Positions 2,893-46,287 are shown, counted from the first letter of the stretch. The stretch: DNA of 64,000 nt from Escherichia coli (GCF_003790525.1 NZ_CP033635.1), one strand, 5' to 3'. The notes: generated by a model from the sequence alone, not told the origin. Numbers and translations: made by a program.

Positions 2893-3966
2893 ATGGATAA
2901 CAAAATCGTAGAAATTGAGACAAATAAGCTTGATTTTGACCCTAAAAACCCACGTTTCTTTCGTCTCAATGATGCCAGTAACGCTGCAACAGTCATTGAG
3001 GAAATGTTAGATGACGAAAGTGTCCACGATCTAATGCTATCAATCGGTCAGCAAGGTTACTTTCCTGGAGAACCTTTATTGGCAGTAAAAAGCAATGGAA
3101 ACTACATCGTGGTTGAGGGAAACAGACGCTTAGCTGCTGTAAAGTTGCTCAATGGAGATCTGCTTCCTCCAAAAAGAAAACTTAAAGGTGTGCAAGAAAT
3201 CATTGATGATACTACCAATAAACCTAAGAAGCTTCCCTGCATCATTTATGAAAACCGAGAGGATGTACTGAGATATATCGGTTATCGTCATATAACTGGG
3301 GTCAAAGAATGGGACTCATTATCTAAAGCCAAATACCTTAAAGAGTTATGTGATACTTTTTATTCACATGAGCCTAAAGAGATAGTATTAAAAAATCTGG
3401 CTCGTGAGATTGGGAGTAAACCACATTATGTTGCAACACTTCTCACTGCACTGAACTTATATGAAGTCGCGCATGACCATGAGTTTTTTAATTTACCCAT
3501 GAAGGCTTCTGACGTGGAATTTTCATATATAACCACAGCTTTGGGATATTCAAAAATCACAAACTGGTTAGGTCTACAGGATAAAAAGGATTTTTTAGAC
3601 CCAAATTTAAATGAAGAAAACCTTAAGCGTTTATTCTCTTGGTTTTTTGTGCCTGACCAACAAGGTAGAACCATCATCGGTGAGTCTCGAAGAATAAAAG
3701 ATATTGCAGCAGTGGTTGAGAAACCCGAAGCAATTGAAATTCTCATGAAAAGTTCAAACTTGGATGAAGCATATCTATATACCAGCGGAGAAAGAGAAGC
3801 ATTAGATAAAGCACTAAACGCAGCTAGTGTTAAATTAAGAGTAGTTTGGGATATGCTACTTAAAGCTAAAGAATTAACATTAGAGCATGAAGAGGCTGCA
3901 TCTGAAATTTTTGAGATGTCAAAAAATATTAGAAATCAGATCAGAAGCAAAAGGGAGGATGATTGA
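2893..3966 (+). CDS. ParB/Srx-like N-terminal-domain protein (hotspot cargo gene 1); ORF open from 2761, start 2893 preferred
   Basis: Motifs LDFDPKNPRFF and IVVEGNRRLAAVKL resemble the ParB PNPxQPR and GERRxRA boxes; GAGG 5 nt upstream of ATG 2893; region looks AT-rich. Confidence 0.7.
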   Translation: MDNKIVEIETNKLDFDPKNPRFFRLNDASNAATVIEEMLDDESVHDLMLSIGQQGYFPGEPLLAVKSNGNYIVVEGNRRLAAVKLLNGDLLPPKRKLKGVQEIIDDTTNKPKKLPCIIYENREDVLRYIGYRHITGVKEWDSLSKAKYLKELCDTFYSHEPKEIVLKNLAREIGSKPHYVATLLTALNLYEVAHDHEFFNLPMKASDVEFSYITTALGYSKITNWLGLQDKKDFLDPNLNEENLKRLFSWFFVPDQQGRTIIGESRRIKDIAAVVEKPEAIEILMKSSNLDEAYLYTSGEREALDKALNAASVKLRVVWDMLLKAKELTLEHEEAASEIFEMSKNIRNQIRSKREDD

Positions 3967-43026: not shown

Positions 43027-43658
43027 AACGACGTGACACCATCGTGCGCTACACCGCGCCGGAACGTATCAACCACTGGATCACCGCCTTCTGCTTCATC
43101 CTGGCGGCGGTGAGCGGGCTGGGCTTTTTGTTCCCGTCCTTCAACTGGTTGATGCAAATCATGGGCACATCGCAGCTGGCGCGCATTCTGCACCCGTTTG
43201 TCGGCGTGGTTATGTTTGCCTCGTTCATCATCATGTTTTTCCGTTACTGGCATCACAACCTAATCAATCGGGATGATATCTTTTGGGCGAAGAATATTCG
43301 TAAGATCGTCGTCAACGAGGAAGTAGGCGACACCGGGCGTTATAACTTCGGTCAGAAATGCGTTTTCTGGGCGGCGATTATTTTCCTGGTTCTGCTGCTG
43401 GTGAGCGGCGTGATTATCTGGCGTCCTTATTTTGCGCCTGCTTTCTCAATCCCGGTGATCCGATTCGCGTTAATGCTGCATTCATTTGCCGCAGTGGCGT
43501 TAATTGTGGTTATCATGGTGCATATCTACGCCGCCCTTTGGGTGAAAGGCACGATTACCGCCATGGTGGAAGGATGGGTTACCAGCGCCTGGGCGAAGAA
43601 ACATCACCCGCGCTGGTACCGTGAGGTCCGCAAGACAACGGAAAAGAAAGCTGAATGA
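43023..43658 (+). CDS. fdoI: Formate dehydrogenase-O cytochrome b556 subunit
   Basis: 211 aa membrane protein. Confidence 0.95.
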
Positions 43659-44584: not shown

Positions 44585-44759
44585 TCTCTGACGTTTTCCG
44601 GGTGGCGCAGGTCGCCCGGATTACAGCTCATAGGGTGTGACGACACTATCTCTCGTATTCCGCGTTACCCATTCAAGATCATGCCGCAATTGTCTGTTTG
44701 CCTCGTTCTTCCCTCCAACACATCGATAAGGTTATGGGTATGTCACTGATGACAAGCGT

Positions 44760-44870
44760 ATGATTGCCTGATGCGCTGCGCTTATCAGGCCTACCAATAA
44801 ACTTCAATATATTGAATTTGCATGACTTTGTAGGCCGGATAAGGCGTTCACGCCGCATCCAGCATGAACA
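44760..44870. repeat. BIME: two inverted REP units
   Basis: gcctgatgcgctgcgcttatcaggcctac and gtaggccggataaggcgttcacgccgcatcc. Confidence 0.6.
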
Positions 44871-44912
44871 ACGCGCTCGTTGTCAGCAATCTGATTGGTA
44901 TCATTTTTGCCA

Positions 44913-45131
44913 TTACCATTCCTCGCGCAGCTTACGCTGGTATTCGACACCATCTTCCTCACTCCCTTGCCAGATGCCAAAAGCACTGGCTCTTGCTGTT
45001 TGCGATTGATTTACCAGGTATTGATCTACCGCTTCCCGTAATAGCTCCGCACGAGGAAGATTACGCTGCACCTCGAGATCATCAAGTTGCTTAAACAACT
45101 CATTCGATAAATTGAGTAAAATTCTGCCCAT
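44913..45131 (-). CDS. yiiF: Ribbon-helix-helix (CopG-like) protein YiiF
   Basis: 72-aa form; [15 protein letters not shown]. Confidence 0.75.
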
Positions 45132-45373
45132 ATCTATACCTGCCAGAGAGTTCATAAATATCTCGCCAATATCATTTTTGAATCTATGGAGAGAAAAGTA
45201 CCCTTGCCGAATCTTTAAAGAAAGCGCATTTACGCATCATTTTTTATTTTTGCGAGGCGTTTTCCAGATACGATGTAACAGTTGCAGTTATTATAAGTTC
45301 AAGTAAAACAACCTTGTATTAATATCAGAATAAGGGCATCTGGTTTTTATATTCAAGAATAATATATTTTTTG

Positions 45374-45592
45374 TCATTCCTTATGCTCCTTACACTGATC
45401 ATCAACAACTACTGTCTCACCCCTTTGCCTGCCTCCCTTTGCTTTACGCACCGGGAATTGCTGACGTTCCAGATATTGCTCTACCGCTTCGCGTAAAATT
45501 GCAGATCGTGAAACCTTACGCCAGCCCCTAAGCTTGTTCAGCCGTTTAATTGCCTCTTCTGATAAATGAAGAAAAACCGTATTCATCGCCAT
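45374..45592 (-). CDS. yiiE: Ribbon-helix-helix (CopG-like) protein YiiE, paralog of YiiF
   Basis: 72-aa form; VSRSAILREAVEQYL. Confidence 0.75.
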   Translation of the reverse strand: MAMNTVFLHLSEEAIKRLNKLRGWRKVSRSAILREAVEQYLERQQFPVRKAKGGRQRGETVVVDDQCKEHKE

Positions 45593-46287
45593 TACCAATA
45601 CCTTACATATATTACTCATTAATGTATGTGCGAAAATTACGCCGAAAAATCATTTAAAAAAAGCGGATTTTTGCATGCTGTTTTGTTTTTGCGAGACGTT
45701 TTCCAGAAATAATAAGAACGTTGCAGTTGTTTCATTTGTTAATCAAAAATGGTTTAGTTATCGCCCAGGATGAGATATGGGTGCTATAAATATATTATAT
45801 TCAGGGATATTTATTTTTTGATTGGGTCTTCATTTGCATAATCTGAATGGTGTACCCGAAAAACGTCAGCATCCTAACAGCACCAGGATTTAAGGTGAAA
45901 TTTAACATCCATCACAGACCGTTCAATGCTGCCACCAACCGGTCTTTACTTGCTCGTCGTTATAATTTTGTTGGTAACAGTTTGGGAAACAAGGAATTCC
46001 TTCCGGAACACCCCCGGTATCATCCGATAGCATTGACGTCAATCATCGGCGCGACGATGAGTTTTTTTAATCGCATCATAGGGTGGCAACGGTCAGCACG
46101 ATACGGGTCATAGCAAAACTCCTGCACAGGCGGCCACTATGCCGCTTTCACAGGAGTTCTGAATGCTGGTGCTTTCTGTATGGCATCGCCATGCCCCTCG
46201 CGGCTAAGCGCCTGCACACATCTCTCTTTGAATGTCATTTTTGCAATGCATTGTCCGAATTCTGATAATCCTAATGAGTTTTACCCG

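What the first reader, a model, noticed from the sequence alone, without database searches (positions are those of the whole stretch)
44900..45760. Tandem duplication of an RHH gene unit (yiiF/yiiE) including upstream regions
The two small CopG-like genes are paralogs ([15 protein letters not shown] against VSRSAILREAVEQYL). Their upstream regions also share a block (ttttgcgaggcgttttccaga ... gttgcagtt at about 45250 and about 45690), so the duplication spans promoter plus gene. RHH proteins are often antitoxins or operator-binding repressors; no toxin partner is evident.
Basis: partly seen in the sequence, partly recalled or inferred. Interest (0 to 1): 0.3.

Follow-up and report, generated by a model that had tools for sequence, protein, structure and literature searches.

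The report
Duplicated antitoxin genes beside dead toxin
The two small genes are a real tandem duplicate, control region included, of the antitoxin gene of a toxin-antitoxin pair whose toxin gene lies in ruins next door, so this is an ordinary decaying "addiction module" with one unusually well-preserved spare copy.

Summary
The window is E. coli SMS-3-5. yiiF (44913-45155, -) and yiiE (45374-45592, -) are paralogous ribbon-helix-helix (RHH) genes. The homology covers each whole ~220-nt upstream region (z=25 against shuffles), not only the quoted block.

The claim "no toxin partner" is wrong. In about 30 genera of Enterobacteriaceae the same fabY-fdhE slot holds one YiiF orthologue overlapped by a 124-aa PIN (VapC) toxin gene. 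The K. pneumoniae pair is the solved VapBC complex 7BY2. In the window, vapC survives as three fragments (44621-44913), broken by a REP insertion and two deletions.

Other Escherichia show other stages:
- yiiE-yiiF-vapC intact in 57 of 5,426 complete E. coli genomes and in a sister lineage;
- a YiiE/YiiF hybrid antitoxin with intact vapC in E. albertii;
- yiiE alone in E. whittamii.

yiiE occurs only in Escherichia. Its RHH domain is under strong purifying selection, and its toxin-binding tail has decayed.

The shared block contains a 22-nt core conserved in all these genera. I tested whether it is a sigma-54 promoter or a structured RNA, and it is neither. Its binding factor is unknown.

Verdict: a new member of a known kind, of modest interest.

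The parts
44913..45155 (-). yiiF: an RHH antitoxin gene of VapB type, orphaned in this strain. The 80-aa reading is given; K-12 annotates a start at MGRILL, 72 aa.
   Evidence: RefSeq CDS. It is 70-74% identical to positional orthologues that precede a PIN gene. PDB 2K5J is YiiF itself. The K. pneumoniae orthologue is chain A of the VapBC complex 7BY2.
45374..45592 (-). yiiE: the Escherichia-specific tandem duplicate of vapB. The RHH domain is kept. The tail is homologous to the VapB tail but degenerate.
   Evidence: Pfam RHH_1, E=1.5e-11. 39% identical to YiiF. The tails align in frame at DNA level. Homologues occur only in Escherichia. In RHH codons 1-49, dN is about 0 while dS is 0.03-0.32; the tail has omega 0.24-1.3.
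45156..45373 (-). Upstream region of repeat copy A (yiiF), 31% G+C.
   Evidence: Aligns along its whole length with 45597-45820, z=25. It is co-linear with the hydrolase-vapB intergenic region of Citrobacter and Salmonella.
45593..45820 (-). Upstream region of repeat copy B (yiiE).
45214..45292 (-).
   Evidence: Direct-repeat family D1, 77% identity to 45653-45731.
45653..45731 (-). 79-nt shared block, yiiE copy.
45247..45268 (-). Conserved core of the yiiF copy: TCTGGAAAACGCCTCGCAAAAA on the - strand. A cis element with an unknown binding factor.
   Evidence: Differs at 1 of 22 positions from the yiiE core here and is identical to it in K-12. In 28 genera the core columns are 0.86 conserved against 0.61 for the rest of the upstream region.
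45686..45707 (-). Conserved core of the yiiE copy: TCTGGAAAACGTCTCGCAAAAA on the - strand.
45153..45174 (-). Decayed promoter-proximal element of yiiF: TGATATTGGCGAGATATTTATG. The ancestral form is TGATATACTGGAGGTATATATG, which combines an extended -10-like TGnTATACT with the inverted repeat ATATAC-N5-GTATAT.
   Evidence: The ancestral form is invariant in 28 genera and is kept in E. coli 2016C-3878 and in L071, which have intact vapC. It is altered in the toxin-less alleles of SMS-3-5, K-12 and E. fergusonii.
45313..45328 (-). Decayed copy of an SOS (LexA) box: CTGATATTAATACAAG. Relatives have CTGTATGGATATACAG.
   Evidence: Alignments; coordinates.
44904..44913 (-). vapC pseudogene, fragment 1: start codon overlapping the yiiF stop, plus codons 1-4.
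   Evidence: 52 of 53 nt identical to the yiiF-vapC junction of L071.
44742..44903 (.). REP/BIME insertion that interrupts vapC.
   Evidence: Absent from the intact vapC of L071 and L072. Rfam hits typical of REP sequence: ES036 at 44787-44829 (39.6 bits) and partial naRNA4. Inverted repeat I5.
44680..44741 (-). vapC pseudogene, fragment 2: codons 9-30.
   Evidence: 77% identical over 64 nt to L071 vapC, E=3e-9.
44621..44676 (-). vapC pseudogene, fragment 3: codons 102-124 plus the stop codon, with a 15-nt deletion. Codons 31-101 are missing.
   Evidence: tblastn gives HDLEWVTRNTRD-----SVVTPYEL, E=2e-5 against the Citrobacter PIN protein. blastn E=2e-26 against L071.

Best explanation
yiiE and yiiF are what is left of a vapBC type II toxin-antitoxin locus (RHH antitoxin VapB plus PIN-domain RNase toxin VapC). 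That locus is ancestral at the fabY-fdhE position in Enterobacteriaceae.

Shown:
- In the Escherichia lineage a unit of about 450 bp was duplicated in tandem. The unit comprises vapB, its whole ~220-bp upstream region and the first codons of vapC.
- The downstream copy, yiiF, stayed a normal VapB.
- The upstream copy, yiiE, changed quickly. All three residues predicted to read DNA on the beta-strand differ, and the C-terminal tail degenerated. It was then frozen by strong purifying selection on the RHH domain.
- In SMS-3-5, as in about 99% of E. coli, vapC was destroyed by a REP insertion and two deletions.
- In these toxin-less alleles the promoter-proximal signals of yiiF are also altered.

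Inferred:
- YiiF is an orphan antitoxin that could still neutralise a VapC of this type.
- YiiE is a stand-alone RHH DNA-binding protein that no longer binds toxin.
- The ancestral vapBC promoter is the invariant TGATATACT, an extended -10. VapB represses it through the overlapping inverted repeat ATATAC-N5-GTATAT.
- The 22-nt core of the shared block (TGGAAAG-N4-CTCGCAAAAG in most genera) is a separate upstream control site. It is most likely bound by a host factor or is part of an upstream promoter. It subjects both RHH genes to the same input, which would explain why it is kept in both copies after the toxin was lost.
For: Synteny and toxin:
- 57 loci were recovered. In Citrobacter, Klebsiella, Enterobacter, Kluyvera, Salmonella diarizonae and others the order is fabY-(hydrolase)-RHH-PIN-fdhE, with a single RHH gene.
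- The K. pneumoniae RHH protein at this locus is 100% identical to chain A of PDB 7BY2. The PIN protein matches 7BY2 chain B, 'Ribonuclease VapC', at E=9e-63.
- vapC fragments are present in the window.

Stages in Escherichia:
- yiiE-yiiF-intact vapC in L071 and in E. coli 2016C-3878, where RefSeq calls it a 'VapC family toxin'. 57 of 5,426 complete E. coli genomes keep at least 80% of vapC.
- The E. albertii RHH protein is YiiE residues 1-35 joined to the YiiF tail, followed by an intact PIN gene.
- E. whittamii and one E. coli strain have independent deletions that leave yiiE alone.

Local duplication:
- Homology covers the gene and all flanking sequence.
- Both upstream regions share Escherichia-specific sequence such as AACTGCAAC.
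- YiiE relatives are confined to Escherichia in a word-indexed search of 5.8 billion proteins. An exhaustive phmmer search of 1.84 billion representatives found only 20 hits.

Selection:
- In the yiiE RHH domain, Nd is 0-1 against Sd 1-9. In the tail, Nd is 1-12.5 against Sd 0-4.

Core:
- It is conserved in 28 genera, including those without the hydrolase gene or the SOS box.
- It is identical in the two K-12 copies.
- It persists in E. albertii, which has only the YiiE-type DNA-reading head.

Proximal element:
- It is intact wherever vapC is intact and altered where vapC is dead.
Against: - No experiment on YiiE, YiiF or their promoters was found. The papers located list them only as uncharacterised regulators.
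- No transcription start site could be retrieved, so both promoter assignments rest on sequence alone.
- The simple sigma-70 scan finds no canonical -35/-10 pair on the gene strand in either the dead or the live allele.
- The YiiF tail is still well conserved in toxin-less E. coli. This fits a recent toxin loss but could also mean another function.
- The left flank of E. coli yiiE resembles the flank of an internal unit. E. whittamii yiiE has the ancestral flank. The history may therefore have involved three units or gene conversion, and I did not resolve this.
- The link between toxin loss and decay of the proximal element rests on essentially one allele lineage.
Confidence: 0.8

Rival explanations
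1. The two genes are free-standing paralogous RHH transcription regulators that were never part of a toxin-antitoxin module.
For: No intact toxin ORF lies next to either gene in the window. Databases list both as putative regulators.
Against: Positional orthologues carry an overlapping PIN gene in about 30 genera. vapC fragments are in the window. vapC is intact in 57 E. coli genomes. The orthologous complex has a solved structure.
Confidence: 0.02
2. yiiE is not a local duplicate. It is an unrelated RHH or antitoxin gene that arrived by horizontal transfer next to yiiF.
For: YiiE is only 39-44% identical to YiiF and sits on a long branch at the base of the enterobacterial VapB clade. The surrounding slot is variable, carrying a higB-like/nadS pair or a 617-aa ORF in different strains.
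Against: The non-coding flanks are homologous along their whole length and share Escherichia-specific sequence. The tail aligns in frame with the VapB tail. The closest non-Escherichia relatives of YiiE are VapB proteins of this same locus, 50-57% identical. An exhaustive search finds no other family.
Confidence: 0.04
3. The conserved core is a sigma-54 (-24/-12) promoter, so both genes would depend on an enhancer-binding activator.
For: TGGAAAACGCCTCGCA has GG and GC at the exact GG-N10-GC spacing. The conservation is bipartite around a variable 4-nt spacer. A few genuine sites begin TGGAAC or end TCGCA.
Against: A weight matrix built from the 135 ChIP-seq sites scores the cores at 4.6-7.1 bits. 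Real sites have a minimum of 6.8 and a 5th percentile of 10.3. Between 90 and 250 equally good 17-mers occur in this window alone. No sigma-54 ChIP-seq site is listed at yiiE or yiiF in the main tables or the held supplementary files, and there is no RpoN genomic-SELEX site. Kosakonia, Cedecea and C. koseri break the GG or the GC.
Confidence: 0.03
4. The core is the autoregulatory operator bound by the RHH proteins themselves (VapB or VapBC, and YiiE), rather than a host-factor site.
For: Type II antitoxins normally repress their own promoter (established knowledge). The core is the best-conserved distal element. It can be read as two subsites one helical turn apart (TGGAAAG and TCGCAAAAG), as expected for two RHH dimers; this reading is an inference from the sequence. 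Both RHH domains and both cores are retained after toxin loss.
Against: The core lies about 115-137 nt upstream of the MGRILL start, far from the likely -10. It is not palindromic. It is unchanged in the yiiE copy and in E. albertii although the three predicted base-reading residues differ, R/L/D against T/F/H. It did not decay with the toxin, whereas the proximal inverted repeat did.
Confidence: 0.3
5. The similarity of the two upstream regions is a neutral leftover of the duplication, or is maintained by gene conversion, and has no function.
For: Outside the core the block is only 62-65% identical in places. Recombination between the units does occur: the E. albertii hybrid and the deletions.
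Against: The core is conserved across genera that have a single copy, where gene conversion cannot act. It is more conserved between the copies (21 of 22, or 22 of 22) than the coding sequence, which is about 64% identical.
Confidence: 0.1

Closest known systems
VapBC of Klebsiella pneumoniae (PDB 7BY2/7BY3; Kang et al. 2020, J Med Chem 63:13669, as cited in PMC11117207)
   Same: It is the positional orthologue. The RHH protein encoded between fabY and fdhE in K. pneumoniae ATCC 13883 is 100% identical to chain A of 7BY2. YiiF matches it at E=2e-29. The Escherichia VapC matches chain B at E=9e-63.
   Different: The window has no functional toxin. It has an extra, diverged copy of the antitoxin gene with its own copy of the control region.
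FitAB of Neisseria gonorrhoeae and other RHH-PIN VapBC modules (from my own knowledge)
   Same: An RHH antitoxin with a C-terminal toxin-binding tail, a PIN toxin, overlapping genes, and autoregulation through inverted repeats in the promoter.
   Different: The operator here has not been mapped. There is an additional conserved distal core of unknown function.
Orphan (solitary) antitoxins left by toxin-antitoxin decay, and 'anti-addiction' antitoxins (concept reviewed in PMC7354431; details from my own knowledge)
   Same: The antitoxin is retained after the toxin is lost. It could neutralise incoming homologous toxins.
   Different: Here the decay series can be followed within one genus, and the antitoxin had been duplicated before the toxin was lost.
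Three-component toxin-antitoxin systems with a separate regulator: omega-epsilon-zeta and PaaR-PaaA-ParE (from my own knowledge)
   Same: In genomes with intact vapC the order is RHH protein without a toxin-binding tail (YiiE), then antitoxin, then toxin. This is like omega, an RHH repressor, placed ahead of epsilon-zeta.
   Different: YiiF keeps its own RHH domain. yiiE has its own promoter copy rather than being shown to lie in one operon. No regulatory role of YiiE has been shown.

Membership tests
Type II toxin-antitoxin module, VapBC (RHH-VapB / PIN-VapC) | A toxin gene encoding a PIN-domain protein immediately downstream of, and overlapping, the antitoxin gene | tested here: not met
   In the window only three fragments remain (codons 1-4, 9-30 and 102-124), interrupted by a REP insertion. 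The feature is met in orthologous loci and in 57 E. coli genomes. The window therefore holds a relic, not a working module.
Type II toxin-antitoxin module, VapBC (RHH-VapB / PIN-VapC) | An antitoxin with an N-terminal DNA-binding domain (RHH) and a C-terminal toxin-binding region | tested here: met
   Met for YiiF: full-length orthology, 61-74% identity, to VapB proteins paired with PIN, including the crystallised one. For YiiE the RHH domain is present (Pfam E=1.5e-11), but the tail is degenerate and evolves at omega 0.24-1.3, so YiiE fails this feature.
Type II toxin-antitoxin module, VapBC (RHH-VapB / PIN-VapC) | The antitoxin neutralises the toxin by direct binding | not testable with these tools
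   Inferred for YiiF from orthology to the 7BY2 complex. The E. albertii hybrid (YiiE head, YiiF tail) sits next to an intact toxin, which suggests that the tail is the neutralising part.
Type II toxin-antitoxin module, VapBC (RHH-VapB / PIN-VapC) | Autoregulation through an operator in its own promoter | not testable with these tools
   The candidates are the proximal inverted repeat ATATAC-N5-GTATAT and the distal core. No binding data were found.
Tandem segmental duplication | Two adjacent copies in the same orientation, with homology that continues through coding and non-coding sequence | tested here: met
   (z=25). Recombinant and collapsed arrays occur in E. albertii, E. whittamii and E. 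coli.
Sigma-54-dependent promoter | A -24 GG / -12 GC element that scores like bona fide sites, with RNAP-sigma-54 occupancy | tested here: not met
   The spacing is met. The matrix score of 4.6-7.1 bits lies at or below the lowest of the 135 real sites. There is no ChIP-seq or genomic-SELEX site.
LexA (SOS) box | CTGT-N8-ACAG palindrome | tested here: not met
   The window has CTGATATTAATACAAG at 45313-45328, and an even weaker version in the yiiE unit. Relatives and E. whittamii have CTGTATGGATATACAG or CTGTATGAATGTACAG next to the hydrolase start.
Structured cis-regulatory RNA or sRNA | A conserved secondary structure with covariation, or an Rfam match | tested here: not met
   RNAalifold on 16 orthologous leaders predicts 0 pairs. 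Rfam gives no hit in the block at E<=1.

The most novel reading that the evidence does not exclude
In the genomes that still have vapC (about 1% of E. coli, a sister Escherichia lineage), yiiE-yiiF-vapC works as a three-component toxin-antitoxin system. YiiE would be an antitoxin duplicate that lost its toxin-binding tail and changed its DNA-reading residues, and it would act as a dedicated RHH regulator. This would be a caught-in-the-act example of how systems like omega-epsilon-zeta arise. YiiE would then have been kept as a host regulator after the toxin died. The E. albertii YiiE-head/YiiF-tail hybrid would show that the two modules can be exchanged.
Probability: 0.2. Interest if true: 0.5.

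Novelty: new member of a known kind. Interest (0 to 1): 0.3.

Why it matters
It gives two long-standing E. coli K-12 genes of unknown function an origin and a testable role. yiiF would be an orphan VapB antitoxin. yiiE would be its neofunctionalised duplicate. An unannotated vapC pseudogene lies next to fdhE. As I recall from surveys of toxin-antitoxin loci, K-12 is usually said to have no vapBC locus; this is a relic of one.

The Escherichia genus offers a natural series: intact three-gene locus, hybrid antitoxin, toxin-less pair, single gene. This series could be used to study how toxin-antitoxin modules decay and how antitoxin DNA-binding domains are recruited as regulators.

None of this changes how toxin-antitoxin biology is understood.

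Tried and rejected
- Sigma-54 promoter reading of the core. Rejected by a weight matrix built from 135 ChIP-seq sites and by the absence of ChIP-seq and genomic-SELEX sites.
- Structured RNA or sRNA in the block. No Rfam hit and no consensus structure.
- Canonical sigma-70 promoters on the gene strand. None was found in the dead or the live allele; the counts equal the shuffle expectation.
- Small ORF across the core. By eye, the variable positions do not follow codon periodicity and the reading frames differ between the two copies, so I rejected it.
- Matches of the core to known binding-site consensuses recalled from memory (marbox, CRP, PhoB, CpxR, IclR half-site, SlyA and others), compared by eye only. 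None was convincing and nothing is claimed.
- A third RHH copy upstream of yiiE. tblastn finds none at E<=0.05 in 45593-46287. The 20-nt 'third copy' at 46237-46256 lies beyond the region shared with other strains and is probably chance. A short stretch at about 45795-45830 does resemble the sequence that follows the yiiE stop codon, so a scar of an earlier unit is possible. I did not resolve this.
- Published transcription start sites. Three look-ups in supplementary files found nothing for this locus.
- The primary paper on K. pneumoniae VapBC is not held in the library.

Full report
**What the window is.** The region matches E. coli SMS-3-5 (NC_010498.1) at 100% identity. RefSeq annotates fdoH, fdoI and fdhE on the + strand. 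On the - strand it annotates a 'CopG family transcriptional regulator' at 44913-45155 (called yiiF in other strains) and yiiE at 45374-45592.

**Check of the observation.**
- YiiE matches Pfam RHH_1 at E=1.5e-11. YiiF matches only below the cut-off.
- The quoted upstream block is a 79-nt direct repeat, 77% identical, in register with the genes.
- The homology is wider than the block. The two whole upstream regions align end to end (45157-45373 against 45597-45820) with score 53. One thousand dinucleotide shuffles give 11.5 +/- 1.6, so z=25.
- The C-terminal coding parts, which BLASTP did not join, also align in frame at DNA level. [18 protein letters not shown] of YiiF corresponds to QRGETVVVDDQCKEHKE* of YiiE.
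There are two units of about 461 and 447 nt, each with a gene and about 220 nt of upstream sequence.

**The missing toxin.**
- Proteins 65-74% identical to YiiF occur in Citrobacter, Pseudocitrobacter, Salmonella diarizonae, Enterobacter and others.
- On their contigs they lie in the same slot, between fabY (yiiD) and fdhE. Each is followed, with a one-base overlap, by a 124-aa PIN-domain gene.
- A scan of one genome per species returned 57 loci. In about 30 genera of Enterobacteriaceae the order is fabY-(alpha/beta hydrolase)-RHH-PIN-fdhE, with a single RHH gene.
- The K. pneumoniae RHH protein at this locus is 100% identical to chain A of PDB 7BY2/7BY3. Chain B of that entry is 'Ribonuclease VapC', and the Escherichia PIN protein matches it at E=9e-63. 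PDB 2K5J is YiiF itself. The paper on the K. pneumoniae system is cited in PMC11117207 but is not held in the library.
- yiiF is therefore the VapB antitoxin gene of a vertically inherited chromosomal vapBC locus.

**The toxin gene is still visible in the window.**
- tblastn with the Citrobacter PIN protein finds its last 25 residues next to fdhE, as HDLEWVTRNTRD-----SVVTPYEL*, E=2e-5.
- Against an intact Escherichia vapC (L071) three pieces remain: codons 1-4 overlapping the yiiF stop (44904-44913), codons 9-30 (44680-44741), and codons 102-124 plus the stop with a 15-nt deletion (44621-44676).
- Codons 31-101 are deleted. About 160 nt of REP/BIME sequence (44742-44903) is inserted.
- K-12 has the same wreck, and it is not annotated there.

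**Stages within Escherichia.**
- A lineage related to Escherichia sp. E4694 (L071) and E. coli 2016C-3878 (L072) carry yiiE, yiiF and an intact vapC. RefSeq calls the last a 'type II toxin-antitoxin system VapC family toxin'.
- 57 of 5,426 complete E. coli genomes keep at least 80% of vapC.
- 4,139 of 5,426 hold at least 80% of the two-unit region. Most of the others have part of it.
- E. albertii has one RHH gene followed by intact vapC. Its first 35 residues are identical to YiiE and its last 37 are of YiiF type. This is a recombinant across the conserved LREAV.QYL stretch.
- E. fergusonii resembles E. coli, with an extra gene inserted between the two units.
- E. whittamii and one E. coli strain have independent deletions that remove yiiF and most of vapC and leave yiiE.

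**Nature of yiiE.**
- Its relatives are confined to Escherichia, in both the word-indexed search and an exhaustive phmmer search of 1.84 billion representatives. The latter gave 20 hits, nearly all of them YiiE variants.
- Its RHH domain is closer to Citrobacter VapB (56% identity) than to E. coli YiiF (44%). It forms a long branch with almost no internal diversity.
- Across E. coli, E. fergusonii, E. whittamii and the E4694-like lineage, RHH codons 1-49 show 0-1 non-synonymous against 1-9 synonymous differences. The tail evolves at omega 0.24-1.3.
- By alignment to CopG and Arc (established RHH knowledge), the three residues that should face the DNA are R/L/D in every VapB and T/F/H in YiiE.
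- yiiE is therefore not a decaying copy. It changed quickly, lost the toxin-binding tail, and has since been conserved as an RHH protein.

**The shared block.**
- An alignment of upstream regions from 28 genera shows four conserved elements:
  1. An SOS-box palindrome, CTGTATGGATATACAG, beside the divergent hydrolase gene. It is absent where that gene is absent.
  2. A 22-nt core, TTCTGGAAAG-N4-CTCGCAAAAG, with column conservation 0.86 against 0.61 for the rest. It is also present in genera that lack the hydrolase gene and the SOS box.
  3. GTAnnTTG.
  4. An invariant TGATATACTGGAGGTATATATG.
In SMS-3-5 the two cores differ at 1 of 22 positions. In K-12 they are identical.
- The fourth element reads as an extended -10 (TGnTATACT) overlapping the inverted repeat ATATAC-N5-GTATAT. 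Three genera lack an ATG at the long-form start, so MGRILL is probably the real start.
- The fourth element is intact in every locus with a live toxin, including E. coli 2016C-3878. In the toxin-less yiiF alleles it is altered to TGATATTGGCGAGATATTTATG. The core is unchanged.
- I therefore assign the proximal element to promoter plus VapB operator, and the core to a separate upstream control site. Both assignments are inferences.

**What the core is not.**
- Its GG-N10-GC spacing suggested sigma-54. A matrix built from the 135 published ChIP-seq sites scores the cores at 4.6-7.1 bits, at or below the weakest real site. Between 90 and 250 17-mers in the window score as well.
- Neither the ChIP-seq tables and held supplementary files nor the RpoN genomic SELEX lists yiiE or yiiF.
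- No consensus RNA structure is predicted and there is no Rfam hit.
- No canonical sigma-70 promoter is found on the gene strand.

**Literature.**
- yiiE and yiiF appear only in lists of uncharacterised regulators (PMC4797297, PMC9308461).
- yiiE is flagged as H-NS-bound and was induced 2.5-fold by SlyA overproduction (PMC5797941).
- An RpoS-holoenzyme SELEX peak lies in the yiiD-yiiE spacer, about 600 nt from the core (PMC5493296).
- No paper was found that links these genes to vapBC.

**Verdict.** The duplication, upstream region included, is real. The antitoxin guess is right. The statement that there is no toxin is wrong. The locus is a decaying vapBC module with a neofunctionalised antitoxin duplicate. 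This is a new member of a known kind and of modest interest. The open points are the factor that binds the core, the true promoters, and whether YiiE regulates the locus.

Noticed in passing
46288-48141 (-): A 617-aa ORF just upstream of yiiE with a CX5R-like motif, CKSAKDRT, reminiscent from memory of SopB/IpgD-type phosphatases. It has no Pfam, NCBIfam or PDB match. Homologues, 'hypothetical protein' of about 604 aa, occur only in E. coli and Shigella. RefSeq splits it into a 'transposase' and a pseudogene. K-12 keeps only the first ~25 codons.
   Followed up: partly
43176-43192 (+), inside fdoI: CTGGCGCGCATTCTGCA is the best sigma-54 matrix hit in the window at 16.4 bits. It corresponds to the published intragenic sigma-54 ChIP-seq site IS47 in fdoI.
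   Followed up: partly
44895-44911 (+) and 45629-45645 (-): Two further sigma-54-like 17-mers. TTGGTATCATTTTTGCC scores 14.6 bits and lies antisense at the yiiF/vapC junction; the GG is not conserved in K-12. TCGGCGTAATTTTCGCA scores 12.7 bits and lies in the yiiE leader; the spacing is not conserved in other genera. Neither is in the published site lists.
   Followed up: partly
L004 about 3816-3831; L065 2811-2826; window 45313-45328 (decayed): A strong LexA-box palindrome (CTGT-N8-ACAG) lies 15-25 nt from the start of the divergent alpha/beta-hydrolase gene in most Enterobacteriaceae. This suggests that the hydrolase gene, and perhaps vapBC, is SOS-regulated. The duplicated units in E. coli carry only decayed copies.
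   Followed up: partly
L002 4599-5201; L070 842-1444: Many E. coli strains and E. albertii carry a higB-like (103 aa) plus nadS/HTH (96 aa) pair upstream of yiiE. This is a second toxin-antitoxin-like module in the same slot. SMS-3-5 has the 617-aa ORF there instead.
   Followed up: no
45962-46056 (-): A frameshifted remnant of a 92-aa ORF that is intact upstream of yiiE in E. albertii and E. fergusonii. Its function is unknown.
   Followed up: no
44742-44903: REP/BIME sequence (Rfam ES036 and partial naRNA4 hits) is inserted inside a protein-coding gene (vapC) rather than between genes. It is a candidate for the event that inactivated the toxin.
   Followed up: partly
L069 1518-2255: E. fergusonii has a 245-aa ORF with no Pfam hit, on the opposite strand, inserted between yiiE and yiiF.
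   Followed up: no
window 44600-46300 against 5,426 E. coli genomes: The SMS-3-5 allele of this region is only 90-95% identical to that of most E. coli genomes. This is far more divergent than typical core genes (from my own knowledge), so the locus is unusually polymorphic.
   Followed up: no
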